From Minisyncoccota bacterium (GTDB lineage Bacteria; Patescibacteriota; Minisyncoccia; Phycocordibacterales; JAGLPS01), in contig JAGLPS010000019.1 in the NCBI GenBank assembly GCA_023137185.1, forward strand, positions 309 through 64,308: DNA of 64,000 nucleotides. Reading direction: 5' to 3'. Of the stretch, positions 1-60,815 are shown piece after piece. Each line of letters begins with the position of its first letter. The stretch's first letter is position 1. A program made the translations under genes and the position numbers. Below the pieces are notes generated by a model. It was not told the origin of the DNA. It made no database searches and saw only the letters and a program-made list of their open reading frames with translations.

Positions 1-3000
1 TTATAATTTCTCTTATTATCGCACCTTTTGGTAGTTTTTTCTCAACAGATTCAAGATTGATGTCATTAGTGTTCTTTGAAACAGATATTATTTTTGTCCT
101 ATCTCTTGATGGTTCATAAATAGCGATGAGATTGTCCATTACGGTTTTTAAATGGGAAATAAAGATTAAAGACTTTCCTGTTCTTGGGTGTTTCGCGTAA
201 TGGTACCTTGCGAACGCATTTTCATTATACACCGCCTTCGTCGTTGTTCCGTACGTGAGCAAATTCAGAGAAATTAAAGACTGGCGTTTCTTTTCAGCCA
301 AATCATAACTAACTGCAAGGGTGTTCCCCCACTCGTCCGTTATCGTGGTGGATTTATCTCCAAACAAAACCACGGGTTCTTGCGTTGTTTCGTCAATGCC
401 CGTTATTTCTATGCCGTTCTTTTCCATAGAAAAACCGATTCTCGCTTCGGGAGGAATGTCATCAACAGGAATCGGGGGTAAGGTTACAGTGCCTCCGATC
501 ACGGGCTCAAGCGAAATGTCCGTTTCTCCGTCATTGTCAAAATCCACGTCAAGAGAAGACGCGTTCTCTATGGTGCCAAGAGGAAAAGATATTGACGCTT
601 TCGTTGTGGTCGCAACTGGTATTGATTCAAACATAGTCGCGGCAATAATAACGCCATTGGAAGATTCTTCTATTTCAAGGTCAAAGGACCCGCTCGCGAA
701 TCCCGAAAGATTTATAACAGGAGCAGCTTGTTTTGGTATGGAGATATATTGGACTTCTCCAAAGTGTTTATACCTTCCCCCGGGTATAGCCGATGTCGTT
801 GAACTAAGTGTGTTTCCAAAACTGTCTACAGCCGTCATACCCAAAGGAGAGTGAAGATAGAAATACAAGCGGTTGTCGGATTCTCCCACCGATGGCTGGT
901 AATCGGTAACAAATTGCGGAGTGGTAGTCGTCCCCTCAATTTTGTTTTTTATGAGCTCAACTAGCTGTGGAATTTCTAAAATGTTTTTGTGCTCCCTTGG
1001 AACATGAATACCACTAGATAAAACATTGTTGTAACTATTCAAATTCACCCACCACCTTTTAACGTTCGGGCTTGAAGTGCTCATAGCAAGAGCGCTCGGC
1101 GTAACAACTATCCCATCGCCGTCAACAACAAGCTTAGGTTTATAATCCCACACAAGTTCGCTTTCCTCACAGAAAAAGTTATCCCCAATCGGCAAATAAG
1201 AAACGCATTTATTTTTCCCTTTATAAACTATTGACGACAACGTCTCCTCGCCCCAGCCGGCAATTTCGTAAATATCAATACGCGAAGGCGGAATAAAATC
1301 GTCTATTTCATTATGCGCGCTATCGGCGTACGCGAGCAATTGTTCGTTCAATACTTCCGGCGATGACAAATCGGAAAATAGCGGGGATTCCCTGCCATCG
1401 CCCTCCTCGCCTTTTAGAAAACTCCAAAGTTCCTCCTTCGTATCTATTGTATCGCCGTATTCAGCCACAGCATCGTCTATTGGTTCGTACCCGCTACCTT
1501 CAAACCGTATGGGAGGCGTGGTTATTCCTCCGCCTTCACCCAGCCAATACGAAGCGGATGGTAAAAGAGGATACGCGCCCGGCATATTCTGCGCAAACTC
1601 GCGCGCCGTGCTCCTTGAAACCACCGCGTCAAACCAGTCTTTAGGCAAACCCTGGTCAAAGCCGTGAAGAAGCGCGCCTATCGCCATCGGCGTTCCCGCT
1701 TGCGGAACCGCCACCAAAAATACGTTGTCAATTTTTTCAAGAAGCGGGCTGTTTTCATTTTCAAGTTTTTTCAGCAAATACTTTACTACCAGTCCCCCGT
1801 TTGAATGAGCAACAATAGACACTTTTCCCGTCTTTGACGTTTCAGCGAGCCGATTGAGTTCCTGAATAATGTAAGGAGTGCTAGTCGCCCGCAAATCTCC
1901 AGAATAGTAAATTTTTTCGTCCACTTTGTTCCCATAAGAGAGAATGTCATTAAGCGAGAGCCGCCAATCGTATGGCACGGTCGAATAATCGGCGATAATA
2001 CGCTCGTCGTTTTTCCAAGTTTCCAAATCGGAAAGAAACGACTTGTAAATATTCCAAAGAGGAATAAACCCAAACGCGCGCACCTCGCCAATCACGTCCT
2101 TTGTGTAAATATCAAAACGCGCGCTTTGTCCGTTTTCATCCAAAAAGAGCGCTTCAACATCGCCGTTGTTATTAGGTTCCCAAAGAATATCCGTGCCGCC
2201 GCTATAGTCGGGTTTGTACAAGCGACTTGCTTCAAGTCCCGGCAAAAACAGAACACTTGAACAACATTCCGGCGCGAGAATATTAAGAGGATACTCGGTA
2301 AGCCATGGGTCAAAATCAACGTCGCCGACAACTCCGTCCCCCGTGCCCAAAGGGTTCACGGGATTTCTCGGTCCGGACGCATCTCCCCACCAATTATTGG
2401 TGGCATCCGCGATATCAGGGTTTGCGGACGGCAAACTGGAGTAAAAATTGACGCCGTAGTTTGAGTTTCCGGCGATAGAACTGTCATGAATTTCAAGAAT
2501 CGGTCGGATGTCGCAAGAAAAAACTCCGGCGCAGACGCCTAGCACACCATCAAAATTATTCGTAATGGTCGTGCTCGCGATACTCGCCGAGCCACCTGTT
2601 AACTTCACACCTGCGATAATAAAATCTTGGATCACGGCGTCTGCTAATTCAAGATGTCCTCGCTCGCCGCTTCCGGCGCTGACCTCAATTCCAACTCTTC
2701 CACCCGAAAGAAACACGCGATTCGCACTCGCGATCGCGTTGACACTTATGTTGATTGCCAATCCCGACCCCGCGTTGGTAACAGTTATATTTTCAAATGT
2801 CGCGGTCGCGTTTCCGACTGTAATTCCCGAGCCACCAGTAAGATTTTCAATAGTAATATCGGAGAACAAGCAGGTTCCACCCCCGCCACAGGACAAGCCG
2901 TCGTTAACATTATTCAACGTAATATTTTTAAATTCATACGTTCCATTATTCGCGATAACAGAACGAACTGAATCAAGAAAATGCGTGTCTTCAAAAACAG

Positions 3001-3499
3001 TATCCGCGCGCGTAGCCCGCAAACCGTCATTACTGTATTTCCACACAAGCCCTTTAATTTTATGGGGACCGCTATATTTAGACAGGTCAACCAACCATTC
3101 GTCATTCGGCGCCCCTTCCGAAAAACCATCTCCATTTGTATCACCACCCGCGCTGTCATCCTTGAGCGAAGTAAAAAATACAGGATTTTCGGTAGCGCCA
3201 TTCACGATTAAGACGCCGGTCTGACGGACATACATTCTGGCATTATCCCCAAACTTCACAATCGCGCCTTCTTCAATGGTAAGAGTGGCACCGTCTTGAA
3301 CGCTTACGATAGTAGAGTCGCTTATGTAATACGGACTGTCCTCGGCATTCCACACAGTATCTGATGTAATAGTTGCGCCAGAGACGTCTGTTGCTGCCCG
3401 CACGGCAATCGGCAACAGCAATATAAGTGCGAAAACAGCCAATTTCAAAAACCATATATTTGTGCGTTTTTTTATGTATTTCTTGGTATGTTTGAGCAT
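1..3499 (-). CDS. Large secreted protein, 3'-truncated by the window edge (more than 1160 codons visible). It has an N-terminal signal peptide, parallel beta-helix-like repeats, and a C-terminal-half alpha/beta-hydrolase (lipase/esterase) domain with a GxSxG nucleophile elbow (VAHSNGG).
   Basis: I translated the minus strand by hand from the ATG at 3497-3499 and found no stop codon down to position 1. The frame is absent from the ORF track, apparently because its stop lies outside the window. The start reads MLKHTKKYIKKRTNIWFLKLAVFALILLLPIAVRA, a clear signal peptide. Beta-helix-like motifs include NITVTNAGSGLAINISV, and SIVAHSNGGLVVKYLL marks the nucleophile elbow. The plus-strand ORFs in this span (321..854, 2508..3224) are low-complexity shadows. 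Confidence 0.6.
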   Translation of the reverse strand, partial: MLKHTKKYIKKRTNIWFLKLAVFALILLLPIAVRAATDVSGATITSDTVWNAEDSPYYISDSTIVSVQDGATLTIEEGAIVKFGDNARMYVRQTGVLIVNGATENPVFFTSLKDDSAGGDTNGDGFSEGAPNDEWLVDLSKYSGPHKIKGLVWKYSNDGLRATRADTVFEDTHFLDSVRSVIANNGTYEFKNITLNNVNDGLSCGGGGTCLFSDITIENLTGGSGITVGNATATFENITVTNAGSGLAINISVNAIASANRVFLSGGRVGIEVSAGSGERGHLELADAVIQDFIIAGVKLTGGSASIASTTITNNFDGVLGVCAGVFSCDIRPILEIHDSSIAGNSNYGVNFYSSLPSANPDIADATNNWWGDASGPRNPVNPLGTGDGVVGDVDFDPWLTEYPLNILAPECCSSVLFLPGLEASRLYKPDYSGGTDILWEPNNNGDVEALFLDENGQSARFDIYTKDVIGEVRAFGFIPLWNIYKSFLSDLETWKNDERIIADYSTVPYDWRLSLNDILSYGNKVDEKIYYSGDLRATSTPYIIQELNRLAETSKTGKVSIVAHSNGGLVVKYLLKKLENENSPLLEKIDNVFLVAVPQAGTPMAIGALLHGFDQGLPKDWFDAVVSRSTAREFAQNMPGAYPLLPSASYWLGEGGGITTPPIRFEGSGYEPIDDAVAEYGDTIDTKEELWSFLKGEEGDGRESPLFSDLSSPEVLNEQLLAYADSAHNEIDDFIPPSRIDIYEIAGWGEETLSSIVYKGKNKCVSYLPIGDNFFCEESELVWDYKPKLVVDGDGIVVTPSALAMSTSSPNVKRWWVNLNSYNNVLSSGIHVPREHKNILEIPQLVELIKNKIEGTTTTPQFVTDYQPSVGESDNRLYFYLHSPLGMTAVDSFGNTLSSTTSAIPGGRYKHFGEVQYISIPKQAAPVINLSGFASGSFDLEIEESSNGVIIAATMFESIPVATTTKASISFPLGTIENASSLDVDFDNDGETDISLEPVIGGTVTLPPIPVDDIPPEARIGFSMEKNGIEITGIDETTQEPVVLFGDKSTTITDEWGNTLAVSYDLAEKKRQSLISLNLLTYGTTTKAVYNENAFARYHYAKHPRTGKSLIFISHLKTVMDNLIAIYEPSRDRTKIISVSKNTNDINLESVEKKLPKGAIIREII

Positions 3500-3640
3500 T
3501 TTGTTTTCCCAAATTTTCGAGTATGTGTATACTATCATAAACATAATTACGAACGTAATTACGAACGTAATTACACCCTTGAAATTATCTGAATGCCCTA
3601 CTTGGAGGTTGAGCCTCCAAAGTTCACAAAGTTGAGATTT

Positions 3641-3988
3641 TTAAATAAGCTCAAAACCCAGAATTCCGTATTCTTCTATCTTCTCTAAATAGTCGGGGTA
3701 CGAAGCATATCTTTTTCTTATTTGTTCGGCACTATTCAAGTTAGGCATAACTTTTTTTATTGGGACTTCGGTAAGCATATCCTCAATGGTCGACCAGTGG
3801 TATTTTCTAAGTATTTTTTTAGAGAAAACATCGTTACCGCACACAAACTTGATTTCACCCCCCGCTTCAATAGATTGATACTCTTTTGTTCCGGCGCGTG
3901 TTTCTATGGCTTTAACACCGTTTTTGATTTCTTCAAAACGCTCTTTGTCTACCTCTCTGAATTTTAAAATTGGTATTCCCATTCTCAA
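3641..3988 (-). CDS. ASCH-domain protein
   Basis: A 115-aa protein with the ASCH-like pattern (LKF...I..G.K.IETR... GGEIKF, short beta-barrel). Confidence 0.55.
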   Translation of the reverse strand: MRMGIPILKFREVDKERFEEIKNGVKAIETRAGTKEYQSIEAGGEIKFVCGNDVFSKKILRKYHWSTIEDMLTEVPIKKVMPNLNSAEQIRKRYASYPDYLEKIEEYGILGFELI

Positions 3989-4056: not shown

Positions 4057-4121
4057 TTTTATCGAGTTTTTATCGAGGTTTTTTATCGAGGTTCTTTTTT
4101 ATCGAGGTTCAACCTCGATAT
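4057..4121. repeat. Iteron-like direct repeats: about four copies of TTTTTATCGAGGTT, followed by the inverted copy AACCTCGATA
   Basis: Seen in the sequence between the ASCH and GIY-YIG genes. A related TTGAACCTCGATAA occurs at 8866-8879. Confidence 0.6.
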
Positions 4122-4430: not shown

Positions 4431-4460
4431 ATTTCATCTGCCCTTCAAAGCAAAGCTTTT

Positions 4461-4669
4461 CAGGACATTGGGTTGCATTTGTCCCTTGCCCTTCGTCGAA
4501 GACTTCTCAAGGACTGCGTCGCTTCGCTTCTTTCCCTGCCCTTCGTCGAGGACTCCTCAGGACATTAGATTGCATTTGTCCCCTGCCCTTCGTCGAGGAC
4601 TCCTCATCAGGACTGCATCGCTTCGCTTCTTTCCCTGCCCTTCGTCGAGGACTCCTCAGGACACTGAAT
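4461..4669. repeat. Tandem repeat, about 99 bp x 2.1. Each unit contains two copies of a 28-bp core (CTGCCCTTCGTCGAGGACTCCTCAGGAC) separated by two alternating 21-22-bp spacers.
   Basis: Read directly from the sequence. The spacers themselves recur, so this is not CRISPR-like. Confidence 0.8.
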
Positions 4670-8790: not shown

Positions 8791-8893
8791 AAGGCAAACC
8801 AGTAAAAGTGGAGAAAGAAATTTCTCCACTTTTTTTATGCAAAGAAAACCCGTCAATTATACCTAGATTGAACCTCGATAACAAAGCACTCCG

Positions 8894-8971
8894 TTTTTGG
8901 ACACTCAGTGTCCAAAAACCCAAGTGTCCAAAAACCCAAATTACACTACACTTGGAAGCCGAGCTTCCAAG
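8894..8971. repeat. Composite palindromic repeat element: TTTTTGGACACTCAGTGTCCAAAAA, then TTACACTACA, then CTTGGAAGCCGAGCTTCCAAG
   Basis: Both palindrome cores recur in the same arrangement but inverted orientation at 23646..23726. Single palindromes occur at 3602, 31520, 36964, 50946, 60241 and 60771. Confidence 0.7.
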
Positions 8972-9088
8972 TTGGCAAAGATTGTTAAACTCGCGTAAAA
9001 AAATTTGACAAAAAGGATATTTGTGCTAATATAGCAAAAGATAAAGAAGAGTACAGTCCTTTAAAAAACCGTTAAAAGGAGAGCTGCG

Positions 9089-15968: not shown

Positions 15969-16820
15969 ATGAATCATCCTATTAAAACATTAGCTTCTCA
16001 AGAATTTCCTCCGCTTCTTACGGAAATCCCTGATAAACCGAAGCAGCTTTTTCTTCGCGGCGTGTTGCCAAATCATCAGAAAATTCTTTCTGTTGTCGGC
16101 GCGCGAAAATACAGCCCGTACGGCAAGGACGTATGCGAGCGGCTTATTGAAGGACTCCGCGGTTACAGTATAGCCATTGTATCCGGCCTTGCCCTTGGCA
16201 TTGATTCAATCGCCCACCGCGCCGCTCTTAAAGCCGGTTTATACACACTTGCGATTCCGGGTTCCGGATTATCGGACAATGTGCTATACCCAAGTCTCCA
16301 CCGTAACTTGGCAAAAGAGATTCTTAGCTCTGGCGGCGGACTTTTATCGGAGTTTGAAGAAGAAACAAGAGCCGCGCCGTGGACATTTCCGCGACGTAAC
16401 AGAATTATGGCGGGAATTTCGCACGCGACACTCGTTATTGAAGCCGAGAAAAAATCAGGAACACTTATTACTTCTCGTCTCGCGACAGAATATAATCGCG
16501 ATGTATTCACCGTCCCCGGTTCTATCTTTTCAAAAAACTCCGAGGGACCGCATATGCTCTTGAGGCTTGGCGCTACTCCTATCACATCGGCAGAAGAACT
16601 TTTAGACGCGCTTGGTTTTGAGAAAGATGAAAAAGCGGAAAAAAACATTGACTGCTCGCCACAAGAAAAGAAAATTCTAGAAATTTTACACACACCGCTT
16701 TCCCGCGATGAGCTTATTCGTCAAAGCAAGATGACTGTAAGTGAAGCTAACACCTTGCTTTCCATAATGGAGATAAAAGGGCTTGTTGAGGAAACGCTTG
16801 GAGAAATACGACGAAGTTGA
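15969..16820 (+). CDS. dprA: DNA processing protein A (DprA/Smf)
   Basis: VVGARKYSPYGKDVCERL...IVSGLALGIDSIAHRAAL...RNRIMAGIS, with a C-terminal winged-helix-like tail. Confidence 0.85.
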   Translation: MNHPIKTLASQEFPPLLTEIPDKPKQLFLRGVLPNHQKILSVVGARKYSPYGKDVCERLIEGLRGYSIAIVSGLALGIDSIAHRAALKAGLYTLAIPGSGLSDNVLYPSLHRNLAKEILSSGGGLLSEFEEETRAAPWTFPRRNRIMAGISHATLVIEAEKKSGTLITSRLATEYNRDVFTVPGSIFSKNSEGPHMLLRLGATPITSAEELLDALGFEKDEKAEKNIDCSPQEKKILEILHTPLSRDELIRQSKMTVSEANTLLSIMEIKGLVEETLGEIRRS

Positions 16821-17479: not shown

Positions 17480-19708
17480 TTGGTATCAATGACTAAGTTG
17501 TTAATTGTAGAATCACCGGCAAAAGCCAAAACCATCACAAAGTATCTTGATGATACATATACCGTTACCGCGTCAGTCGGGCACATAAGAGACTTGCCAA
17601 AAAGCAATAAGAAAGCCGTGGATATAGAACACGGTTTTGTTCCACATTACGAAATTTCCAAAGGAAAAGAGAAAGTTATTTCGGAAATAAAAAGTCTCGC
17701 AAAAAAAGCAGAGGAGGTGCTTCTCGCGACCGACCCCGACCGCGAAGGAGAAGCGATCGCGTGGCATATAATTCAAGCCTGCGATTTAGAAAATCAAAAG
17801 TTAAAAGTCAAAAGGATTGTTTTTCACGAAATTACCAAAGACGCCGTCAACGAAGCATTAAAGCATCCCCGAGATATTGATAACGACTTGAAGGAAGCTC
17901 AGGAGGCCCGCCGTGTTCTTGACCGCCTCGTCGGCTACGACTTGTCGGGACTTATCTGGAAAAAAGTTAGATATGGACTTTCCGCGGGACGAGTGCAATC
18001 CCCCGCTTTGCGAATCCTCTCCGAACGCGAGCGCGAAATCGCGGCTTTTATTCCCCAGAAATATTGGGTTATTGACGCGGACACAGAAACTGATAAAAAA
18101 GAAAAAATTACTTTTACCTGCGCGAAAGAACCCACTGAAGAAAAAGAAGCGGAAGAGATTTTGAAACGAGGAAAAGAGGCGCAATGGAAAATTGTTGATG
18201 TTAAAGAAACAAAAGGGAAACGTGCACCGAAAGCTCCTTTTATCACTTCAACTCTCCAACAAGCCGCAAGTTCCCGTCTTGGATTTTCGCCATCACGCGC
18301 GATGATGCTTGCCCAGAAACTTTATGAAGCGGGATTCATTACATATATGCGCACCGATAGCACTACCATAAGTGGTTCTATTGCCACTCATATCGCGGAA
18401 GTTATCAAAAAAGAGTTCGGAGAAAAATTATACACGCCGCGTGTATATAAAACAAAATCAAAAAACGCGCAAGAAGCGCACGAAGCAATACGTCCAACTG
18501 ATGTACTGAAGAGGTTTGCTGGACACAATGACGCGGAGAAAGCGCTCTACCAGCTTATCTGGGAAAGAACTGTCGCCTCTCAAATGGCAGACGCTATTGT
18601 TTTGAAAACCCGCGTCATCGCGGAAGGAGGAAAGGAAAATCCTGAGTTTACGGCAAATGGTTCGCGAATTATTTCACCCGGCTGGCTCCTTGCTGACCCG
18701 CGCGCGCGAGGCGAAGACGTAGAACTGCCGAAAGTGCAAGCTCAAGACAATCTCTCTCTGCTTAAAATACGCTCTGAAGAAAAAGAAACGCTTCCCCCGC
18801 CTCGCTATTCAGAGGCCGGCCTCGTAAAAGAGCTTGAAAAGCGCGGTATTGGTCGCCCTTCCACTTACGCGGCTATCATAAAAACCATTCAGGAAAGAGG
18901 CTACGTTGAGAAAATAAACCGCAGTCTCAAAGTAACAGACACAGGCGAAGTAGTAAGCTCTTTTCTAGAAAATAATTTCGCAAAATACGTAAGCGATACA
19001 TTTACCGCCGAGATGGAAAACAAGCTTGACGCAATCGCCGATGGACAAGCCACATATACAAAAATACTTGAAGACTTTTATGCCCCATTCGCCAAGGATG
19101 TGGAATCAAAACAGGACACGGAAAAAATCACGACACTGGGAGACGCTGAACCTCATCACAAATGTCCTTTGTGCGGAGGAGATATGATTATAAAACTCGG
19201 ACGAACCGGAAAGTTTTTAAGTTGTAAAAAATTCCCAGAATGCAAAGGCGCGCGAACACTGGAAGGAGAAGCAATGGAAGGACCAAAAGAAACTGGAGAA
19301 AACTGTCCCGAATGCGCAAAAAGCCTGCCTGTTGAGAAACAAGGAAAACTTGTAGAGCGTATGGGACGATTCGGAAAATTTATCGCTTGTAGCCGTTATC
19401 CCAAATGTAAGTACGTCAGGAAAGACCCCGCTCAAGAAGAAAAGGCAAAAACAGGAGTTAAGTGCCCCGAATGCGCAAAAAGCCTGCCTGCCGATAAGCA
19501 AGGTGAAATTATGGAGCGTCGCGGACGATTTGGACCTTTTTTCAGTTGCAGCAACTACCCTGATTGCCGTTTTAATATAAAATCAAAACCGACAGGAAAA
19601 TTGTGCGAGGATTGCGGTTCTCTAATGATGGAAGGCACGAAGACTATCCCTGAACGTTGTAGCAACAAAAACTGTCCAAATCACAATCCTCATAAAAAAA
19701 TAAAGTAA
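17480..19708 (+). CDS. topA: DNA topoisomerase I with C-terminal zinc-ribbon repeats
   Basis: TOPRIM TDPDREGEAIAWHI, and multiple CPxC...C Zn ribbons (CPLCGGDM, CPECAKS x2, CEDCGS). The start may be Met-4 (MTKLL). Confidence 0.9.
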   Translation: MVSMTKLLIVESPAKAKTITKYLDDTYTVTASVGHIRDLPKSNKKAVDIEHGFVPHYEISKGKEKVISEIKSLAKKAEEVLLATDPDREGEAIAWHIIQACDLENQKLKVKRIVFHEITKDAVNEALKHPRDIDNDLKEAQEARRVLDRLVGYDLSGLIWKKVRYGLSAGRVQSPALRILSEREREIAAFIPQKYWVIDADTETDKKEKITFTCAKEPTEEKEAEEILKRGKEAQWKIVDVKETKGKRAPKAPFITSTLQQAASSRLGFSPSRAMMLAQKLYEAGFITYMRTDSTTISGSIATHIAEVIKKEFGEKLYTPRVYKTKSKNAQEAHEAIRPTDVLKRFAGHNDAEKALYQLIWERTVASQMADAIVLKTRVIAEGGKENPEFTANGSRIISPGWLLADPRARGEDVELPKVQAQDNLSLLKIRSEEKETLPPPRYSEAGLVKELEKRGIGRPSTYAAIIKTIQERGYVEKINRSLKVTDTGEVVSSFLENNFAKYVSDTFTAEMENKLDAIADGQATYTKILEDFYAPFAKDVESKQDTEKITTLGDAEPHHKCPLCGGDMIIKLGRTGKFLSCKKFPECKGARTLEGEAMEGPKETGENCPECAKSLPVEKQGKLVERMGRFGKFIACSRYPKCKYVRKDPAQEEKAKTGVKCPECAKSLPADKQGEIMERRGRFGPFFSCSNYPDCRFNIKSKPTGKLCEDCGSLMMEGTKTIPERCSNKNCPNHNPHKKIK

Positions 19709-19986
19709 TATTAAAGCACGCAAACTGCTTTGCGTGCGCAACTAGTCTGAGTGAGCCGGAGCGATGTTTCTGTAGCAACAGAAACCGCGAGGCGGGTGAG
19801 AAATGCTGGGAGCATTTCGCAAGACCTTTTGAGACAATTTCTGAATTGTCCAAAAGGTGTACAGACTCTGTAAGAGTCACAAGTCATTCAAGCTCCGTCG
19901 AGCTTGAATGACTTGTGACCGAAGACTATCCCTGAACGTTGTAGCAACAAAAACTGCCCAAATCACAATCCTCATAAAAAAAACTA
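19709..19986 (+). mobile_element. 211-bp non-coding structured element inserted immediately after the topA stop. It is followed by a near-identical duplicate of the last ~66 bp of topA, carrying its own in-frame stop (PHKKN*).
   Basis: topA 19642..19708 is repeated at 19920..19986 with 2 mismatches plus an altered terminal codon. The element begins with the hairpin GCACGCAAACTGCTTTGCGTGC. It ends with CCAAAAGGTGTACAGACTCTGTAAGAGTC plus a 20-bp-stem hairpin. The same 3' motif ends the tRNA-linked elements. Confidence 0.5.
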
Positions 19987-20398
19987 AAAGCCAAAAGCTG
20001 TCTTGGGAGCTTGTCCGCCAAACTTTATTTTGACGAGCGAGTATGCCATGAAAGCTTCCGAGCTTTCATGGCATACAAGCCTGCCTGCCGGCATAGGCAA
20101 GGTCAAGGTCAAGTCAAACTTATAGGTCAATACCGCCCCGCAGGCGGGGCGGGGCGATTGGACAAGCAAAGCGGGCGAGTACCGATAAGACCTGTGGACA
20201 CGGCGTGTCCACAGGTCTTTGTTACTCCCATACTCCCATATTACCCTGCGGTTTTTGCCGCAGGGACATATATTACCTAAACTTAAAATACGATGGGAAG
20301 GGAAAATTTGAGACAATGTGCTTTTTATCCACTTATATTCCATTTTTCCATAAAGTTAGGCGAGTTGCTTTTTTGCCCGCCTCTCCTAAAATAGAGAT

Positions 20399-21982
20399 AT
20401 GAGTGCCCGAGATATTCTTAATCTCCTGCCCGTTCCTCCGACAGAGAAGGATACGGCACTTATTGAACACGCTTATATATTTGCAAAAAAAGCTCACCAA
20501 GAGCAAAAACGATACGAGGGAGAACCTTATTTTACGCATCTTTTCGAGACGGCAAAAATACTCGCGGAGCTCGGTATGAGCGCTGTAACAATCACCGCGG
20601 GACTCCTTCACGATGTTGTGGAAGACAAAAAAGCAACCTCTGAGCAAGTGGAAAAAGAATTCGGAAGCGAGATTCTTTTTCTTGTTGAGGGAGTAACGAA
20701 GGTTGGAAAAATTGAATACCACGGAATAGAACGCTACAACGAAAGTCTGCGGAAACTTCTCGTCGCGACATCACAGGACATTCGCGTCATTATTATCAAA
20801 CTGTGCGACCGATTGCATAATATGCGAACACTAAACCACCTTCCAGAATATAAGCAGCAGCGAATCGCGAAAGAAACATTGGATATTTATGTTCGTATCG
20901 CCTACCGATTGGGAATAAGAAGGATACAGCGCGAACTTGAAAATCTTGCGTTTCCTTACGTATACCCCAAGGAATACAAAGAAATAAACGAATTAATAAA
21001 ACACAAGGAAAAGGAGGACGCGCGGCAACTTGAGAAATTCCAGAAGTCTCTTCGCAAAGCGCTCGCGAAAGCGGGCATAAGAGACTTCAAAACCGATTAC
21101 CGAATTAAGAGTATGTACAGTTTGTACAAGAAATATTTACGAAAGAATAGAAATATTGAAAAAATTTATGACATTCTTGCGATTCGCGTCATCGCGCCTA
21201 CTATAGAAGACTGCTATAAAGTTCTTGGGGTAATACACAGTGTCTGGAAACCAGTTTTAGGACGAATCAAAGACCACATTGCCTTTCCCAAAATAGACGG
21301 TTATCAGAGCATCCATACAACTATTTTTACCGGCGATGGAGCTATTGTTGAAATTCAAATAAAAACAGAAGAAATGTATAAACGGGCAGAATATGGTATG
21401 CATTTTATATATAAAAATGAGTATGGAAGCAAAGATGAAAACAAGGATCAATCAACATTCGCATGGGTTTTGAGACTTCTTCCTTCTTTGTTTTTCAGAG
21501 GAAGAAATGAAAAACCAATCCAAAAAAAATTAAAACGTTCTTCAAAAAATGGAGAAAATAATGATATTCCAAAATGGGTAAAGGAGCTCGCGGAATATCA
21601 AGCTTCCTTGTCTACAAACAAAAAAGACTTCGCAAAAAATCTGCAAGCTGATTTTTTTGATGAGAGAATTTTCGTATTCACGCCAAAAGGAGACGTGATT
21701 GATCTTCCGATTTATTCAACCCCTGTTGATTTTGCCTATAATATCCATTCGGACATCGGCAATCATATGAGCGGAGCCAAAGTGAATGGTAAACTTATTT
21801 CCTTTGACTCATCGTTAAATAATGGCGATATTGTGGAAATCATTATAAAACAGTCCGCAACGCCATCACATAAGTGGCTTGAATCAGTAAAAACGACGCT
21901 CGCTCGGAAACAAATCAAGTCTGAAATCGCTCGCGCGGAAGAAAAAAAATATCAATCTAAAACTAAGTTTAAATCTAAATAA
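20399..21982 (+). CDS. rel: Bifunctional (p)ppGpp synthetase/hydrolase, Rel/SpoT family (HD, synthetase and TGS domains; no ACT)
   Basis: HD domain (HLFETAKIL...LLHDVVED), synthetase domain (YRIKSMYSLYKKY...IHTTIF), TGS domain (IFVFTPKGDVIDLP). Confidence 0.85.
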   Translation: MSARDILNLLPVPPTEKDTALIEHAYIFAKKAHQEQKRYEGEPYFTHLFETAKILAELGMSAVTITAGLLHDVVEDKKATSEQVEKEFGSEILFLVEGVTKVGKIEYHGIERYNESLRKLLVATSQDIRVIIIKLCDRLHNMRTLNHLPEYKQQRIAKETLDIYVRIAYRLGIRRIQRELENLAFPYVYPKEYKEINELIKHKEKEDARQLEKFQKSLRKALAKAGIRDFKTDYRIKSMYSLYKKYLRKNRNIEKIYDILAIRVIAPTIEDCYKVLGVIHSVWKPVLGRIKDHIAFPKIDGYQSIHTTIFTGDGAIVEIQIKTEEMYKRAEYGMHFIYKNEYGSKDENKDQSTFAWVLRLLPSLFFRGRNEKPIQKKLKRSSKNGENNDIPKWVKELAEYQASLSTNKKDFAKNLQADFFDERIFVFTPKGDVIDLPIYSTPVDFAYNIHSDIGNHMSGAKVNGKLISFDSSLNNGDIVEIIIKQSATPSHKWLESVKTTLARKQIKSEIARAEEKKYQSKTKFKSK

Positions 21983-22132
21983 TTCATCTTGTTAGGTAAA
22001 TATATTTGGTATAACATTTTGAATGCATCTGCGCGACAATCAGGTTGCCGTAGAGCAATGCCAAAACTCTCTCGGTCTGAGGACGTTTGTCTCTGAGAGA
22101 TTAGTTTCAATGAGCTGGAGACTCGAAAGTTA

Positions 22133-23131
22133 CTACAGAGTGAAGTTCTTGATTGAATAAAGTTCTTCTTCTTTTTTCTCTTCTGAGGATCTATCGTCTG
22201 CTGGCTTGTCCAGAACTTCTCCGACAGAAGTCTGAGCTGGCGTTTCTCCGTTCTGTTGCAAATTTGCTATATGGCGGTCAAGCATTTCGGACGGATTTTT
22301 TTGTTGATTTGAACGGATAAGGCCGAGGATGTTATGCAGGTCGTCATTTGAGAAAAAATCTATAAGAAGTTTGCCGCCGTTCTCCTTTCTCTCAATAGTT
22401 ACCCGTGTTCCAAGGCTTTCGGCAAGATGTTCTTCAAGCTCCATAAGTTCCGGGTCAGGAATATATTTTTTCTTTCGTATCCGTTCAACCGCGATACGGC
22501 GAGCCATTGATTCAGCGTCGCGCACACTAAGTTTTTTGTATACGATTTCTTTGAAAAGAGTCACTTGCTCTTCAGGTCGGTCATCTAACATCAAAAGCGG
22601 ACGAGTGTGACCTTCGGAAATCTGTCCAGCGCCCAACGCGTCAACAATCTCTTGTGGAAGAGAAAGAATCCTCATTGTATTGGTAACATACGCGCGACTC
22701 TTTCCTACTTTTTTTCCAATCTGCTCGTGTTTGAATTTAAATTCGTTTGCAAGACGGTGGAAAGCCCGCGCTCGGTCAACCGCGTTTAGGTCTTCGCGTT
22801 GGATATTTTCAATAATTGCCAATTCAAGCTTAAGAAGGTCGCTTTCTTCACCCATACGAATCATTACCGGCACCTGTGTCAGTTGGGCTATTTTTGCAGC
22901 GCGCAAACGGCGTTCCCCAGAAATAAGCTCGTATTCAACAGCTAGTCCCCCATCTTCTTTGGAAACTTCTAACCTTGTTACCACAAGAGCTTGAAGTATC
23001 CCGTATTGTCTGACAGAATCAGCAAGATTTTCAAGTTGAGCCTGGTCAAATTCCCGCCGGGGTTGGTAGGGATTCGGTTTTATTTTGTCTGTCTCAATCC
23101 AAAAAATTGAATCGTTGTAAAATTGTGACAT
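22133..23131 (-). CDS. parB: ParB/Spo0J-family partition protein (no adjacent parA)
   Basis: ParB box ELISGERRLRAAKIA, HTH KKVGKSRAYVTNTMRIL. The adjacent upstream position on this strand is occupied by tRNA-Leu rather than parA. Confidence 0.8.
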   Translation of the reverse strand: MSQFYNDSIFWIETDKIKPNPYQPRREFDQAQLENLADSVRQYGILQALVVTRLEVSKEDGGLAVEYELISGERRLRAAKIAQLTQVPVMIRMGEESDLLKLELAIIENIQREDLNAVDRARAFHRLANEFKFKHEQIGKKVGKSRAYVTNTMRILSLPQEIVDALGAGQISEGHTRPLLMLDDRPEEQVTLFKEIVYKKLSVRDAESMARRIAVERIRKKKYIPDPELMELEEHLAESLGTRVTIERKENGGKLLIDFFSNDDLHNILGLIRSNQQKNPSEMLDRHIANLQQNGETPAQTSVGEVLDKPADDRSSEEKKEEELYSIKNFTL

Positions 23132-23236
23132 ATCAGTTTATTAAAACAATTTTAGCATATTTTTTTCTAGGAGCGAAAATTCGTGGAGTATTCTAAAATT
23201 GAAACAGAGGCTTATTTGTAGTAACGTGTATCGTAT

Positions 23237-23318
23237 GCCGAGGTGGCGGAATTGGTAGACGCGCACGACTCAAAATCGTGTGGGGAAACTCATGAGGGTT
23301 CAAGTCCCTCCCTCGGCA
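23237..23318 (+). tRNA. tRNA-Leu (anticodon CAA), class II
   Basis: GCCGAGGUGGCGGAAUUGGUAGACGC, anticodon arm CACGA-CUCAAAA-UCGUG, long variable arm, T-arm GAGGG-UUCAAGU-CCCUC, acceptor CCUCGGC-A. No CCA is encoded. Confidence 0.8.
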
Positions 23319-23638
23319 CAAATTGAGCAAAGCGAAAGCTGTGCCGAGGGAGGCGCAGCTTTCTTTCTGAAGAAAGCGTCGCGCGGACTTGAAGCCCGAT
23401 TGAGATTTTCTTGAATCCAAAGGATGAAAAGAAAATCCAATTGGGGTACTGTTCCTGTAAGGAACAGTACCCCAACACAAGTAGTCAAGGCGAAGTTGGG
23501 CGCGGCAAAATCGTGTGGGGAAAGGCTTGAGGGTTGAGGCGCGAATACTTGGAGCGCCGAAAAATCTTGTGAGATTTTTTCTGAAAAATCCACAAGGTGT
23601 ACAGAACCTGTAAGATTCAAGTCCCTCCCTCGGCACCA
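23319..23638 (+). mobile_element. tRNA-3'-end-linked element. It comprises module B (about 130 bp), the hairpin GGGGTACTGTTCC-TGTAA-GGAACAGTACCCC, a partial tRNA-Leu copy (anticodon-3' half to T-stem), the GGTGTACAGAACCTGTAAG motif, and a duplicate of the tRNA 3' end with CCA (ATTCAAGTCCCTCCCTCGGCACCA).
   Basis: It starts exactly after the discriminator A. Module B is shared with 30473..30630 and 40615..40777. Confidence 0.5.
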
Positions 23639-23645
23639 AGTCAAA

Positions 23646-23726
23646 ATTTGGAAGCTCGGCTTCCAAATGGGAGTCTCAAAACGTGGTGTAATAATTTTAC
23701 AGCTTTTGGACACTGAGTGTCCAAAA
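23646..23726. repeat. Composite palindromic repeat element (ATTTGGAAGCTCGGCTTCCAAAT ... TTTTGGACACTGAGTGTCCAAAA); same family as 8894..8971, opposite orientation
   Basis: Seen in the sequence. Confidence 0.7.
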
Positions 23727-23874
23727 CCGTATTTAGAAGCTTTGCTTCCGAGAGGCTGAAGTGTTACTAACGCTATGGTAATAGGTGGTGCGCAATTTTG
23801 ACTTTTTAATTAAAATATTGTTATATTCAGACAGTCTAATATAGCCATCGTACATTTTTACCAAAGAAAGGAGG

Positions 23875-24159
23875 TTGTCTATGAAGAAGATTTACGTGGT
23901 AATATGTGTCGCCCTTCTCATATTTTTTGTCATCGGGTGCGAAGAGAGACCTGAACTGGTTCATGAAAGGGAAGAACGCCAACGAGCGAGAAATATTAAG
24001 TACGGAATTTTTGTAATCAAAACCGTTGAGTATATAAAAGATCCGCGAACTAATATTTGTTTCGCTTACTCTTGGGGAGGACAGTATAATGGTGGACAAG
24101 CTCTCTCAACAGTACCTTGCGAAGCAATCCCGCCCGAATTGTTAACGGTGGCAAAGTAA
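23875..24159 (+). CDS. Small hypothetical lipoprotein-like protein (signal peptide ending in a Cys lipobox-like IGC)
   Basis: ORF track. Hydrophobic N-terminus VVICVALLIFFVIGC. AGGAGG upstream of the start. Confidence 0.35.
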   Translation: MSMKKIYVVICVALLIFFVIGCEERPELVHEREERQRARNIKYGIFVIKTVEYIKDPRTNICFAYSWGGQYNGGQALSTVPCEAIPPELLTVAK

Positions 24160-24247
24160 ACATCTCCAATCCCTTCCCCGCTATTTTTCGGAATAGCGGG
24201 GTTTTTGTTGAAAAAAAAGTAGAAAAACTGGTAAGATTCATTTTATC

Positions 24248-24340: not shown

Positions 24341-24351
24341 ACATAACATAC

Positions 24352-24422: not shown

Positions 24423-24472
24423 CAAAAAGGCCGCATTATTATTTAGAAATAATGCGGCCGAAAACTTGATAC

Positions 24473-31434: not shown

Positions 31435-31519
31435 AAAAAAGATATTATTTTAAAACTTTATAAATATTGCCCTAAATTCAATTTCGCCTAACTGATTTTT
31501 ATCTAAACTTTCTGTTCAT

Positions 31520-31562
31520 ATTACACTACATTTAGAAGCTGAGCTTCCAAATGTAGTGTAAT
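31520..31562. repeat. 43-bp palindrome ATTACACTACATTTAGAAGC-TGA-GCTTCCAAATGTAGTGTAAT, in the TTGGAAGC/GCTTCCAA family
   Basis: Seen in the sequence, with one mismatch in a 20-bp stem. Confidence 0.7.
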
Positions 31563-31703
31563 ATGAATTTTATCTACTTATATCTACTTGAAGGCTCAAC
31601 ATCCAAACAAGCCTCAAACCTCCAATGTTTAAAGTGCATTCAAAAAATTTTGTAAATTCTCGGCGATCTTGACGCTTTTATCAGACGCGATATTATTAAA
31701 TGT

Positions 31704-36880: not shown

Positions 36881-36963
36881 TCTACGTATTTATTGCATAA
36901 ATTTCAAACTCCCTTTTCTTGAGTAACGTATTTCCCAATCTGCCCTTGAAACAAGTGATACCT

Positions 36964-37016
36964 TTTTTGGGCATAGATTTTGGACACTCTGTGTCCAAAA
37001 TCTATGCCCAAAAAAC
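36964..37016. repeat. Perfect 53-bp palindrome (25-bp arms: TTTTTTGGGCATAGATTTTGGACAC-tct-GTGTCCAAAATCTATGCCCAAAAAA) in the divergent iscS/DUF4446 intergenic region
   Basis: Seen in the sequence. The core GGACAC/GTGTCC is shared with 8894, 23704, 60771 and 20187. Confidence 0.8.
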
Positions 37017-43529: not shown

Positions 43530-43537
43530 ATCGAGCT

Positions 43538-44370: not shown

Positions 44371-44380
44371 AAGACCTTAA

Positions 44381-50918: not shown

Positions 50919-51002
50919 TTTTTTTCGTGAAAATTGAAAGTCAACTTGGAAGCTCGGCTTCCAAAAAAGAGCTCCGAAATGTTGTATGGGGCAGCCTTTA
51001 GC

Positions 51003-60234: not shown

Positions 60235-60379
60235 AGCGTCTCACTTGGAAACTTCGCTTCCAAGTGAGGCTTACAAAGGCTTCGTCTTTGTAAGCCTTTG
60301 TAAGAGGCTATTTGGAGTTGAGCCTTCAAGTCGCATCCAAACATCAAAAAGTTTCGATTCATTGAAACTTTTTAAAAGT

Positions 60380-60607: not shown

Positions 60608-60815
60608 TGGGTTAATAATAACTTGCCTGATAATATCGTCAAGGAAATGTCCAGTCTATAACATCTGACACTCCCGCTCTGGGTAATGTACTGACAAAGA
60701 AAAACACCAATGAGGGCATCTTGTGTTGTGCCACAGAAGCCAAACGAGGAGGGTATCTGTGTCTGACACTTTTTGGACACTGGATGTCCAAATGGTGTTC
60801 AATAATTAGTGCGAG

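What the first reader, a model, noticed from the sequence alone, without database searches (positions are those of the whole stretch)
8894..8971. Dispersed palindromic repeat family with two cores (TTGGAAGC-NNN-GCTTCCAA and TTTTGGACAC-NNNN-GTGTCCAAAA), sometimes fused into a ~80-bp composite element
Composite copies occur at 8894..8971 and 23646..23726, with the same parts in opposite orientation and the linker TTACACTACA / GTGGTGTAATAAT. Single-core copies occur at 3602..3620 (TTGGAGGTTGAGCCTCCAA variant), 31520..31562 (43-bp palindrome), 36964..37016 (perfect 53-bp palindrome), 50946..50964, 60241..60268 and 60771..60793. The GGACAC/GTGTCC core also sits inside a hairpin at 20187..20219. All copies are intergenic. 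They are either REP/MITE-like mobile palindromes or operator sites of an abundant dimeric DNA-binding protein. The 36964 copy sits in the divergent iscS/DUF4446 promoter region. Two copies flank a small paralogous coiled-coil gene.
Basis: seen in the sequence. Interest (0 to 1): 0.6.

Follow-up and report, generated by a model that had tools for sequence, protein, structure and literature searches.

The report
REP-type mobile palindromes in a Patescibacterium
The scattered hairpin repeats are real and are most likely REP elements: short non-coding palindromes spread by a RAYT-type tyrosine transposase, a system well known in Proteobacteria but, as far as I could find, not described in the tiny-genome candidate-phyla bacteria (Patescibacteria) this window comes from.

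Summary
The window is from a 'Candidatus Pacebacteria' MAG (GC 0.41). It carries about 16 hairpin units at 10 non-coding loci. There are four core types on one scaffold, YTTGGA-xxx-N3-xxx-TCCAAR: GGACAC, GGAAGC, GGAGGY and a CGAGGT type. The spacer is 3 nt, not 4.

Eight more copies lie in the 9.5 kb beyond the window. Two syntenic relatives have none. In one of them, the iscS/DUF4446 palindrome falls inside a ~130-nt insertion.

In other Patescibacteria contigs the same cores sit within 45 nt of one or both ends of a ~220-aa Y1/HUH transposase gene. Its predicted fold best matches E. coli TnpA-REP bound to a REP hairpin (4ER8). So these are REP/BIME-like elements of a RAYT-like system. No RAYT lies in the window, so its presence in this genome is inferred.

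An unexpected extra: these RAYT genes (>6,300 homologues) carry in-frame copies of the hairpin at two conserved codon positions, of the same core types as the flanking and dispersed REPs.

The operator, parS, terminator and known-RNA readings are disfavoured.

Verdict: a new variant of a known kind, of moderate to high interest.

The parts
3602..3620 (.). REP unit, type C (TTGGAGGT-TGA-GCCTCCAA)
   Evidence: It lies between the stop of ORF 3641-3988(-) and the start of a 1185-aa gene that runs off the window start. A perfect type C copy (TGCACTTGGAGGC-tca-GCCTCCAAGTGCA) lies in the same genome outside the window (L100 6971-6999).
4100..4120 (.). REP unit, type D (TATCGAGGT-TCA-ACCTCGATA); membership less certain
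   Evidence: A longer copy stands inside a REP cluster at L100 178-212, and a degenerate copy at 8861-8879. It is intergenic (gene list).
8861..8879 (.). Degenerate type D unit, first member of the 8861-8972 cluster
   Evidence: 3 mismatches, pair I8.
8893..8919 (.). REP unit, type A (GTTTTTGGACAC-TCA-GTGTCCAAAAAC)
   Evidence: Folds as a 12-bp hairpin in single-stranded DNA.
8924..8933 (+). Extra right half-site of type A (GTGTCCAAAA, part of a direct 16-nt duplication)
8940..8972 (.). REP unit, type B with its left outer arm (ATTACACTACA + CTTGGAAGC-CGA-GCTTCCAAG)
   Evidence: family D18.
20187..20219 (.). Variant type A core (GTGGACAC-GGC-GTGTCCAC) inside a perfect 15+3+15 palindrome
   Evidence: It lies in the hairpin-rich 690-nt spacer between topA and relA/spoT.
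23646..23668 (.). REP unit, type B (ATTTGGAAGC-TCG-GCTTCCAAAT)
   Evidence: It starts 6 nt after a duplicated tRNA-Leu 3' end.
23684..23696 (+). Remnant of the right outer arm of type B (GTGGTGTAATAAT)
   Evidence: Compare TGTAGTGTAATAT at 31551-31563.
23704..23726 (.). REP unit, type A (TTTTGGACAC-TGA-GTGTCCAAAA)
23733..23751 (.). Degenerate type B unit (TTAGAAGC-TTT-GCTTCCGA)
   Evidence: 2 mismatches.
31515..31567 (.). Full-length type B unit: 53-nt palindrome with outer arms ATATTACACTACA / TGTAGTGTAATAT
   Evidence: pair I11 (26-nt arms, 96%); (-21 kcal/mol, z -10.8).
31588..31606 (.). Degenerate type C unit (TTGGATGT-TGA-GCCTTCAA on the - strand)
   Evidence: 2 mismatches.
36963..37015 (.). 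Type A core inside a perfect 53-nt palindrome, in the divergent iscS / DUF4446 spacer
   Evidence: pair I10. It lies in a ~130-nt segment that is missing from the orthologous spacer of L085. The spacer is only 94 nt in L092.
50942..50964 (.). REP unit, type B (CAACTTGGAAGC-TCG-GCTTCCAA)
   Evidence: It lies 27 nt upstream of ORF 50256-50918(-).
60240..60268 (.). Hybrid GGAAAC/GGAAGC unit (CTCACTTGGAAAC-TTC-GCTTCCAAGTGAG)
   Evidence: The same CTCACTTGGAAAC flank occurs in L039, and TCACTTGGAAGC in L087.
60772..60792 (.). Variant type A unit (TTTGGACAC-TGG-ATGTCCAAA)
   Evidence: It lies between the stop of the 892-aa gene (60816) and the small gene 60380-60607(-).

Best explanation
The repeats are REP-type elements: short, non-autonomous hairpin repeats that belong to a RAYT-like (Y1/HUH, IS200-related) tyrosine transposase system of Patescibacteria.

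Each unit is a 19-23-nt hairpin. The outer stem is conserved (YTTGGA...TCCAAR), the 3-nt loop and 3-bp inner stem vary, and the inner stem defines the type (GGACAC, GGAAGC, GGAGGY; a CGAGGT type is probably related).

Proposed mechanism (inferred):
- A RAYT encoded elsewhere in this genome binds the hairpin when the DNA is single-stranded, for example on the lagging-strand template.
- It cuts next to the hairpin and re-inserts it elsewhere in non-coding DNA, often beside existing units. This builds BIME-like clusters of two to four types, which are the 'composites'.
- Longer perfect palindromes (53 nt) are either full-length units or cores extended by hairpin-templated copying.

What is shown: the family, its extragenic dispersal in this genome, its absence from relatives, and the link between these exact cores and RAYT-like genes in other Patescibacteria.

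What is inferred: that this genome has its own RAYT, that the elements are or were mobilised by it, and the single-strand mechanism. The last is taken from E. coli TnpA-REP and IS608.
For: 1. The family is real and extragenic. About 16 units stand at 10 loci, none in a credible gene, although about 83% of the window is coding. All fold as strong hairpins.

2. It is not confined to the window. Eight more copies (types B, A-like and C, plus D) lie in the 9.5 kb beyond the right end of the same genome, all between called genes except a cluster inside a REP-made 96-aa ORF (L100).

3. It is lineage-specific and looks inserted. L085 (iscS 73% identical) and the syntenic 21-kb L092 (61%) have no copy. 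Alignment A2 puts the 36963 palindrome in a ~130-nt segment between conserved promoter-proximal blocks.

4. It is linked to a transposase.
- TTTGGACAC-N3-GTGTCCAAA lies 19-45 nt before the start and/or within 30 nt after the stop of a ~210-230-aa gene in L003, L016/L026, L020, L037 and L094; L013/L057 carry it only as the second internal site.
- The GGAAGC core does the same in L087, before the start only, with a dispersed copy 6 kb away.
- The gene hits Pfam Y1_Tnp (E about 1e-6). Its only notable NCBIfam hit is REP_Tyr_transpos, which is weak.
- JGI names several homologues 'REP element-mobilizing transposase RayT'.
- The AlphaFold model (pLDDT 84.9) best matches 4ER8_A, E. coli RAYT bound to a REP hairpin (E 1.8e-6, TM 0.70), ahead of the IS608/ISDra2 TnpA structures.

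5. All four window core types are among the commonest hairpin types encoded inside RAYT genes: GH.VS, GS.AS, GG.AS and GN.VS, plus RG.TS.

6. Two different types can belong to one RAYT gene (L057, L037; about 20 of 71 proteins). This parallels the two-core clusters here. Composite modules of the GGAARC hairpin plus the GGACAC hairpin recur in L039, L031 and L041.

7. One RAYT sits at the same chromosomal place in six samples. That is single-copy, resident behaviour typical of RAYTs.
Against: - No RAYT homologue lies in the 64-kb window or in the 9.5 kb beyond it (tblastn; hmmsearch; gene lists). The cognate enzyme in this genome is therefore unproven.
- No insertion polymorphism was seen. All assemblies of this strain from two samples are 99.9-100% identical at the copies.
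- The classical GTAG/CGTC head of proteobacterial REPs is absent next to the hairpins.
- The protein scores far below NCBIfam's RAYT cut-off (22-29 against 80 bits).
- One RAYT-bearing 12.6-kb locus (L094) shows no dispersed copies.
- The only relatives I could fetch are distant (61-73% iscS identity), so absence there could also reflect loss.
Confidence: 0.8

Rival explanations
1. The palindromes are operator or partition (parS-like) sites bound as double-stranded DNA by an abundant dimeric protein, for example the ParB encoded at 22133-23131.
For: - The sites are palindromic.
- Some lie in promoter regions: 36963 in a divergent spacer, and 50946 27 nt upstream of a gene.
- ParB is present and no canonical parS occurs in the window.
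Against: - The sites are not conserved at the orthologous iscS/DUF4446 promoter or anywhere in 21 kb of syntenic relative DNA.
- Four core types differ by paired changes on both arms. That preserves a hairpin rather than a sequence.
- The units occur in arrays, as half units, and with perfect extensions to 53 nt.
- Their positions relative to genes are not fixed.
- The same cores flank transposase genes elsewhere.
Confidence: 0.05
2. They are primarily RNA-level elements: intrinsic terminators or 3'-end stabilising hairpins. Their similarity would reflect common descent or selection, not transposition.
For: - In low-GC relatives the same core is bracketed by A and T runs (AAAAAG-TTTGGACAC-YSR-GTGTCCAAA-CTTTTT). 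This looks like a bidirectional terminator and often follows stop codons.
- Several window copies lie downstream of genes.
- E. coli REPs are known to affect 3' ends (established knowledge).
Against: - In the window the T run is 5' and the A run 3' of the stem, so neither strand has a U tail. Only 1 of about 11 copies is followed by a T run (read directly).
- The neighbouring genes have their own canonical terminators, for example 8804-8833 and 60203-60228.
- One copy lies between divergent starts.
- No Rfam family matches.
- Such a role would in any case be a secondary use of a REP.
Confidence: 0.1
3. They are solo ends or MITE derivatives of an ordinary multi-copy IS200/IS605-type insertion sequence rather than a REP/RAYT system. 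Alternatively, they are dead relics of a system whose transposase has been lost.
For: - The gene-plus-flanking-hairpins unit is about 735 bp, like IS200.
- The Pfam match is to the IS200-like family.
- No RAYT was found in 73 kb of this genome.
Against: - Hairpins far outnumber genes.
- The gene sits at a fixed chromosomal place in six samples.
- The best structural match is the RAYT, not an IS TnpA.
- No TnpB partner was seen next to any copy (gene lists).
- The 'relic' version cannot be excluded with these data.
Confidence: 0.1
4. They are DNA uptake signal sequences of a naturally competent, nucleotide-scavenging bacterium. Such signals often occur as inverted pairs.
For: - Over-represented short motifs occur as inverted repeats in non-coding DNA.
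- DprA is encoded in the window (Pfam DNA_processg_A at window 15969-16820, from L101).
Against: - There are several unrelated inner-stem types.
- The copies are strictly extragenic.
- The cores are absent from close relatives.
- They are tightly linked to a transposase gene.
- Isolated half-sites are rare.
Confidence: 0.02

Closest known systems
REP / BIME elements and their RAYT (E. coli TnpA-REP, yafM; Stenotrophomonas and Pseudomonas RAYTs; PMC2817692, PMC3479197)
   Same: - Both are short extragenic hairpin repeats in many copies.
- Both cluster into mosaic arrays of more than one REP type.
- In both, the transposase gene is flanked by the same hairpins, sometimes by two different types.
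- Hairpin type differs between gene lineages and matches the gene's own flanks.
- The predicted fold is closest to 4ER8.
   Different: - There is no GTAG/CGTC head.
- The scaffold is a conserved outer stem TTGGA/TCCAA with a 3-nt loop and nearly perfect pairing.
- The protein is about 60 aa longer and only distantly related (below the NCBIfam cut-off).
- The host is Patescibacteria.
- The transposase genes themselves carry in-frame copies of the hairpin at two conserved positions.
REPINs (Pseudomonas fluorescens; PMC3116915)
   Same: Both are non-autonomous, vertically inherited hairpin populations thought to be replicated by a single-copy RAYT. Both show doublets of hairpins.
   Different: A REPIN is two copies of the same REP in inverted orientation that form one long hairpin. 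The clusters here juxtapose different core types at variable spacing. The 53-nt palindromes are single cores with extended arms.
IS200/IS605 insertion sequences and their MITE-like derivatives (IS608, ISDra2)
   Same: Both have a Y1/HUH enzyme, subterminal hairpins recognised as single-stranded DNA, and a small element size.
   Different: Here the hairpins greatly outnumber the genes. No TnpB partner was seen. The gene sits at a fixed chromosomal site. The left and right hairpins are the same palindrome rather than distinct LE and RE structures.
Terminator-like mobile hairpins (for example SPRITE of Streptococcus pneumoniae; recalled from memory, not tested here)
   Same: In low-GC relatives the same core is embedded in A-run/T-run arms and looks like a bidirectional terminator.
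   Different: The window copies lack U tails. No transposase is known for SPRITE, whereas these cores flank a RAYT-like gene.

Membership tests
REP elements (repetitive extragenic palindromes) | Short (about 20-40 nt) palindromic units able to form a stem-loop | tested here: met
   The units are 19-29 nt (extended forms 33-53 nt). Their single-stranded DNA folds have z-scores of -2.4 to -11.
REP elements (repetitive extragenic palindromes) | Many dispersed copies, confined to extragenic DNA | tested here: met
   There are 10 loci in 64 kb and 8 more copies in the next 9.5 kb, all outside credible genes.
REP elements (repetitive extragenic palindromes) | Unpaired GTAG (or CGTC) head at one end of the hairpin (PMC2817692, PMC3733652) | tested here: not met
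   No GTAG or CGTC abuts the A, B or C cores. GTAG/CTAC occurs only inside the outer arm of type B (TGTAGTGT / ACACTACA), and on the 3' side. The L061/L073 lineage does have TGTAGTGT-N5-ACACTACA hairpins.
REP elements (repetitive extragenic palindromes) | Arrangement in composite arrays of different REP types (BIME-like) | tested here: met
   The arrays are 8861-8972 (D', A, half A, B), 23646-23751 (B, A, B'), 31515-31606 (B, C') and L100 115-281 (B, D, B, A').
REP/RAYT system | A cognate Y1 transposase gene flanked by the same REPs | tested here: inconclusive
   Met in other Patescibacteria contigs for type A (L003, L016, L020, L094) and type B (L087). Not testable for this genome: no RAYT lies in the 73 kb I could reach.
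REP/RAYT system | The protein is a HUH/Y1 enzyme of the RAYT clade (HUH motif, catalytic Tyr, RAYT-specific motifs) | tested here: inconclusive
   An H-hydrophobic-H motif (NPNH[YF]H) and an invariant Tyr in SAY[VI]N.N are conserved. The Pfam Y1_Tnp hit passes its cut-off (27-29 against 23 bits). The best fold match is RAYT 4ER8. But the NCBIfam REP_Tyr_transpos score is 22-29 bits against a cut-off of 80, and there is no sequence-level PDB hit. RAYT-specific motifs were not checked one by one.
REP/RAYT system | Single-copy, chromosomally resident transposase gene (not IS-like) | tested here: inconclusive
   One homologue (P0112) lies at the same site (murC - x - RAYT - ATPase - murB) in six samples. 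Copy number per genome was not measurable.
REPIN | Two copies of the same REP in inverted orientation with a short spacer, forming one long hairpin | tested here: not met
   The clusters join different core types. The long palindromes have a single core. L003 and L094 do show inverted doublets next to the RAYT gene.
IS200/IS605 insertion sequence | Autonomous unit present in several copies, each with tnpA (often tnpB) between distinct LE and RE hairpins | tested here: not met
   The window copies carry no gene. In the RAYT loci both flanks are the same palindrome and no tnpB lies adjacent.
parS / ParB partition sites | 16-bp palindrome close to TGTTNCACGTGNAACA, conserved near parB in related genomes | tested here: not met
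   There is no match better than chance. The palindromes here are absent from the syntenic relative that carries parB.
Intrinsic terminators | GC-rich hairpin followed directly by a T run on the transcribed strand | tested here: not met
   The T run is 5' and the A run 3' of the stem on both strands. Only 31515-31567 is followed by TTTT.
Known RNA families (Rfam 15) | Match at or near a family's gathering score | tested here: not met
   Only tRNAs reach threshold. Nothing overlaps the repeats, even at E up to 1 in 19600-24500.

The most novel reading that the evidence does not exclude
Patescibacteria have their own large branch of REP/RAYT systems (more than 6,300 RAYT homologues). In it the transposase gene carries in-frame copies of its own target hairpin at two conserved places, near codon 62 and near codon 155. 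These encode [F/L]-G-x-x-x-S-K loops, and the hairpins are of the same core type as those flanking the gene in most lineages examined.

If this is functional, the enzyme would recognise or process its own gene or mRNA. That could mean autoregulation, self-limitation, or copy-correction of specificity. Such a feature has not been described for RAYTs. The window's palindromes would be the dispersed population of such a system in a roughly 1-Mb symbiont-type genome, where selfish repeats are not expected to persist.
Probability: 0.35. Interest if true: 0.8.

Novelty: new variant of a known kind. Interest (0 to 1): 0.6.

Why it matters
- REP/RAYT systems have been studied almost only in Proteobacteria. 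They are debated as 'domesticated' transposases and long-lived intragenomic replicators.
- Finding a distinct, very large branch in Patescibacteria extends the phenomenon to a major, poorly understood part of the bacterial tree. These organisms have streamlined genomes of about 1 Mb with little spare DNA.
- The branch has a simple sequence signature, TTGGA-xxx-N3-xxx-TCCAA.
- It gives annotators a way to label many 'intergenic hairpins' in such genomes.
- The in-frame hairpins inside the transposase genes provide a directly testable model of how a RAYT and its REPs keep matching each other.

Tried and rejected
The spacer is 3 nt.
- Canonical parS: nothing above chance.
- Rfam at gathering threshold on the whole window, and at E up to 1 around the 23646 composite and the 20187 copy: only tRNAs and noise.
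- RAYT in the window: tblastn with two RAYTs and hmmsearch of an 85-sequence profile against all six frames were both negative.
- Attempts to reach this genome's RAYT all failed.
  - Walking off the right end gave 9.5 kb with more REPs but no RAYT.
  - The left end gave only about 420 nt more.
  - One look-up was not on record.
  - Guessing P0112 from its contig length turned out to be another organism.
- The genome-contig scan for the 23-nt type A pattern gave only 5 hits. This species is not among the representatives, but one hit (L003, Parcubacteria) gave the first RAYT link.
- The viral-contig scan for type B gave 2 uninformative hits.
- The sequence-only PDB search with the RAYT profile gave only chance hits to RNase A. 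The fold search was needed.
- No paralogue of the coiled-coil gene was found.
- High-GC metagenome hits (for example Hydrogenophaga, Lentisphaerae genes, a Prevotellaceae tandem repeat) were treated as unrelated occurrences of the same 21-mer.
- Literature searches found no description of REP/RAYT in Patescibacteria or Parcubacteria in the held library.
Full report
**1. What the window is**

GC content is 0.38-0.46. The genes include topA, relA/spoT, parB, two clpB-like genes, iscS, DUF4446, ribosomal protein S1, a run of T4SS_pilin genes and nine scattered single tRNA genes. The iscS protein is identical to 'MAG: cysteine desulfurase [Candidatus Pacebacteria bacterium]' on a 65.8-kb contig. 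Its next relatives are named Patescibacteria, Parcubacteria or Paceibacterota. The same strain (99.9-100% identity) is present in ENA ERZ23498405 and ERZ23498471, Logan SRR13892604 and NCBI GCA_030634405.1.

**2. The observation**

Both cores are there and far above chance.
- TTGGAAGC-N3-GCTTCCAA gives 6 matches against 0.06 expected.
- TTGGACAC-N3-GTGTCCAA gives 6 against 0.24 expected; one of the six is the 60245 copy of the other core.
- The spacer is 3 nt. The pattern written with NNNN finds nothing.

Reading each site, together with a hairpin scan, gives about 16 units at 10 loci. They fall into four types on one scaffold, YTTGGA-xxx-N3-xxx-TCCAAR:

| Type | Core | Full copies | Variants or degenerate copies |
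|---|---|---|---|
| A | GGACAC | 8893, 23704, 36963 | 20187, 60772 |
| B | GGAAGC | 8950, 23646, 31515, 50946 | 23733, 60240 |
| C | GGAGGY | 3602 | 31588 |
| D (probably related) | ATCGAGGT-TSA-ACCTCGAT | 4101 | 8861 |

- Type B has a longer form with outer arms ATATTACACTACA / TGTAGTGTAATAT. It is complete at 31515-31567, has the left arm only at 8940, and has a remnant of the right arm at 23684.
- The two 'composites' share only the hairpins and that arm, and their spacings differ. I read them as clusters (D'-A-half A-B at 8861-8972; B-A-B' at 23646-23751) rather than one fused element.
- All units fold as strong hairpins in single-stranded DNA.
- None lies in a credible gene, although about 83% of the window is coding. 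With 10 loci that is roughly 0.17^10, my arithmetic, treating loci as independent.
- Window 1-3499 turned out to be part of a 1185-aa gene that runs off the window start, so 3602 is intergenic.
- The small gene between the 60240 and 60772 copies is 60380-60607(-). It has no paralogue in the window.

**3. Not confined to the window, and not conserved in relatives**

- A contig of the same genome extends 9.5 kb beyond the right end. It holds eight more copies: five or six of type B, one A-like and one perfect C, plus a D unit. One 170-nt cluster is B-D-B-A' (L100).
- The closest relatives I could fetch are L085 (iscS 73% identical, 3.4 kb, GC 0.41) and L092 (61%, 21 kb, the same gene order from the pilin cluster to parB/relA, GC 0.45). 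Neither has a single TTGGA-N9-TCCAA palindrome.
- The DUF4446-iscS spacer is about 190 nt in L085 and 94 nt in L092, against 312 nt here.
- The alignment keeps the promoter-proximal blocks on both sides and places the 53-nt palindrome inside a ~130-nt extra segment.
- This is the pattern of an inserted, lineage-specific element. It is not the pattern of a conserved operator.

**4. The link to a transposase**

A scan of species-representative genomes for the 23-nt type A pattern found only five places. One is a Parcubacteria MAG with several copies in 8 kb.

A scan of JGI metagenomes for TTTGGACAC-N3-GTGTCCAAA found 78 loci, mostly low-GC contigs. In 14 of them, and in the Parcubacteria locus, the palindrome stands next to and inside one gene family.

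The architecture is constant:
- a hairpin about 15-45 nt before the start;
- one hairpin inside the gene at codon 60-64;
- often a second at codon about 155;
- one hairpin just after the stop.

The hairpin type differs between lineages, and the first internal hairpin matches a flanking one in every lineage except L037:
- GGACAC in L003, L016, L020 and L094;
- GGAGAC plus GGACAC in L013/L057;
- CAGTGGC plus GGACAC in L037;
- TGTAGTGT-N5-ACACTACA in L061/L073.

A homologue chosen because it encodes LGSSAS (P0064) proved to have TCACTTGGAAGC-tga-GCTTCCAAGTGA before the start and the GGAAGC hairpin twice inside. Another copy lies 6 kb away (L087).

**5. What the gene is**

- It hits Pfam Y1_Tnp (E about 1e-6, above the cut-off). 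Its only notable NCBIfam hit is REP_Tyr_transpos, which is weak.
- It has a conserved NPNH[YF]H (HUH) motif and an invariant tyrosine in SAY[VI]N.N.
- It has more than 6,300 homologues at E up to 1e-10. They are named 'transposase' in Patescibacteria, Parcubacteria or Paceibacterota, and by JGI 'REP element-mobilizing transposase RayT'.
- A sequence-only search of the PDB found nothing real.
- An AlphaFold model built on 85 sequences (pLDDT 84.9, pTM 0.81) matches best 4ER8_A, the E. coli REP-associated tyrosine transposase bound to a REP hairpin (E 1.8e-6, TM 0.70). The IS608, ISDra2 and IS200 TnpA structures follow.
- One homologue sits at the same place in the mur/fts cluster in six samples. 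That fits a resident single-copy gene.

**6. An unexpected feature of these genes**

- In 106 of the 120 best homologues both sequence anchors could be located.
- Of these, 94 have a heptapeptide at site 1, and 78 at site 2, that can be encoded by a 9-bp-stem palindrome. The background in the same proteins predicts 0.14 and 0.08 per site window.
- The residue pairs are those forced by reverse-complementary codons: H..V = CAC/GTG, N..V, D..V, S..A = AGC/GCT, G..A.
- The commonest types (GN.VS, GH.VS, GS.AS, GG.AS; also RG.TS) include all the cores seen in the window.
- The two sites carry the same core in 44 proteins and different cores in 27 by the automatic count. Seven of those 27 site-1 hits are the conserved KLVEF strand rather than a hairpin peptide, which leaves about 20. 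That matches the coexistence of several REP types in one genome.
- In the model the site-1 peptide (residues 61-70) has pLDDT below 50, so it is a loose loop.
- I found no description of this, or of REP/RAYT in Patescibacteria, in the held literature. That is absence from one library, not proof of novelty.

**7. Most likely mechanism**

Shown:
- a hairpin family that is extragenic, clustered, abundant in this genome and missing from relatives;
- the same cores, elsewhere in the phylum, as the flanks of a RAYT-like gene.

Inferred:
- This genome has such a gene outside the 73 kb I could read. It is absent from the window and from the extensions.
- The enzyme binds the hairpin in single-stranded DNA and cuts beside it, as shown for E. 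coli TnpA-REP and IS608 (established knowledge; PMC3479197, PMC2817692).
- Units are copied into non-coding DNA, often next to existing units, giving BIME-like arrays.
- The perfect 53-nt palindromes are either full-length units or cores whose arms were extended by hairpin-templated copying. This is speculation.

No copy differs between the assemblies of this strain, so present-day activity is unproven.

**8. Rivals**

- *Operators or parS.* The sites are palindromic and some lie in promoters. ParB is present without a canonical parS. But they are not conserved at orthologous promoters, they differ by paired changes on both arms, they come as arrays, halves and long extensions, and they stand at no fixed distance from starts.
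- *Terminators.* In low-GC relatives the core is bracketed by A and T runs and may well serve as a bidirectional terminator. In the window the runs are the wrong way round, and the neighbouring genes have their own terminators.
- *Known RNAs.* There is no Rfam match.
- *An ordinary IS200-type IS with MITEs, or relics of a lost system.* This cannot be fully excluded without the whole genome.
- *DNA uptake sequences.* This is unlikely, given several inner-stem types, strict extragenic location and the transposase link.

**9. Comparison with what is known**

In how it works, this looks like REP/BIME plus RAYT. As to membership:
- Met: hairpin, extragenic dispersal and mosaic arrays.
- Met in relatives but untested in this genome: the flanked-transposase criterion.
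- Not met: the GTAG/CGTC head.
- The protein is a distant branch, with a RAYT-like fold but a score below the NCBIfam cut-off.
- It is not a REPIN in the strict sense and not an autonomous IS200/IS605 copy.

I therefore call it a new variant of a known kind.

**10. Verdict**

The REP/MITE reading is supported and the operator reading is not. My confidence in the REP/RAYT explanation is about 0.8. Interest is 0.6: the window finding alone is a new member of a known class, but it opens a large, undescribed Patescibacteria branch with an odd and testable self-targeting feature.

Noticed in passing
L016 6825-7493(-), L020 2607-3290(-), L003 1159-1797(+), L087 10001-10690(+), L094 6001-6642(+); proteins P0001-P0120: The RAYT-like genes of Patescibacteria carry in-frame copies of their own REP hairpin at codon ~62 and often at codon ~155. 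These encode [F/L]-G-x-x-x-S-K. The first internal hairpin matches a flanking hairpin in most lineages examined (not L037). 94 of 106 proteins at site 1 and 78 of 106 at site 2 have palindrome-codable heptapeptides, against 0.14 and 0.08 expected.
   Followed up: partly
window 23237-23640, 30198-30817, 40533-40791: Three class II tRNA genes (Leu-CAA, Tyr, Leu-TAG) are each followed by a shared ~300-nt non-coding module. Its start is complementary to the tRNA 3' end. It ends with a second copy of the T-arm/acceptor part, with CCA in the Leu-CAA case. The module is tandemly duplicated after tRNA-Tyr, and this is the only place where two assemblies of the strain differ. It looks like a small integrative element that duplicates its target's 3' end. 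There is no Rfam match.
   Followed up: partly
window 19638-19700 vs 19920-19982; 19708-20399: The last 63 nt of topA are repeated (98%) 282 nt downstream. The segment between resembles the end of the tRNA-linked module (19818-19879 against 23558-23619, 77%). The 690-nt topA-relA spacer is packed with long perfect hairpins (19876-19919, 20041-20076, 20187-20219).
   Followed up: no
window 8943-8950, 31523-31530, 31552-31559; L061 8285-8987; L073 4206-4908: The outer-arm motif of the type B units (ACACTACA / TGTAGTGT) is the stem of the REP that flanks and sits inside another RAYT lineage (TGTAGTGT-N5-ACACTACA), but with the arms in swapped order. I cannot tell whether this is chance, nesting or shared ancestry.
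   Followed up: no
window 4460-4658: Four tandem ~50-nt units in two alternating forms (90-94% identity between like units) lie between a GIY-YIG gene and tRNA-Gln.
   Followed up: no
window 37049-37097: A GC-rich imperfect hairpin (GCAGTCCCGCC...GGCGGGACGAGC) lies between the 53-nt palindrome and the DUF4446 start. In the alignment with L085 this stretch pairs only weakly with L085 sequence, so I cannot say whether it is conserved there.
   Followed up: no
L006 3533-3660 (Prevotellaceae MAG): The same 21-nt palindrome, TTTGGACAC-N3-GTGTCCAAA, is part of a 36-nt tandem repeat with at least four units in an unrelated Bacteroidota genome. It also lies inside a conserved protein-coding gene in several Lentisphaerae-like contigs (L004, L005, L011, L042, L069). 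These appear to be independent occurrences.
   Followed up: no
low-GC metagenome loci, e.g. L012 4315, L017 3165, L019 4227, L040 440: In GC 0.30-0.36 relatives the type A and B cores are embedded in AAAAAG...CTTTTT arms just after stop codons. There the REPs look like bidirectional intrinsic terminators, unlike the copies in the window.
   Followed up: partly
window 43254-45433: A run of six small T4SS_pilin (PF18895) paralogues follows a solute-binding protein gene. The arrangement is conserved in the relative L092.
   Followed up: no
window 31995-34694 vs L001 12187-14891: The 899-aa ClpB ORF of the window is called as two genes (320 and 547 aa) in the ENA assembly of the same strain. The two assemblies differ by one gap in 16 kb, so this is probably a frameshift or an assembly error.
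   Followed up: no
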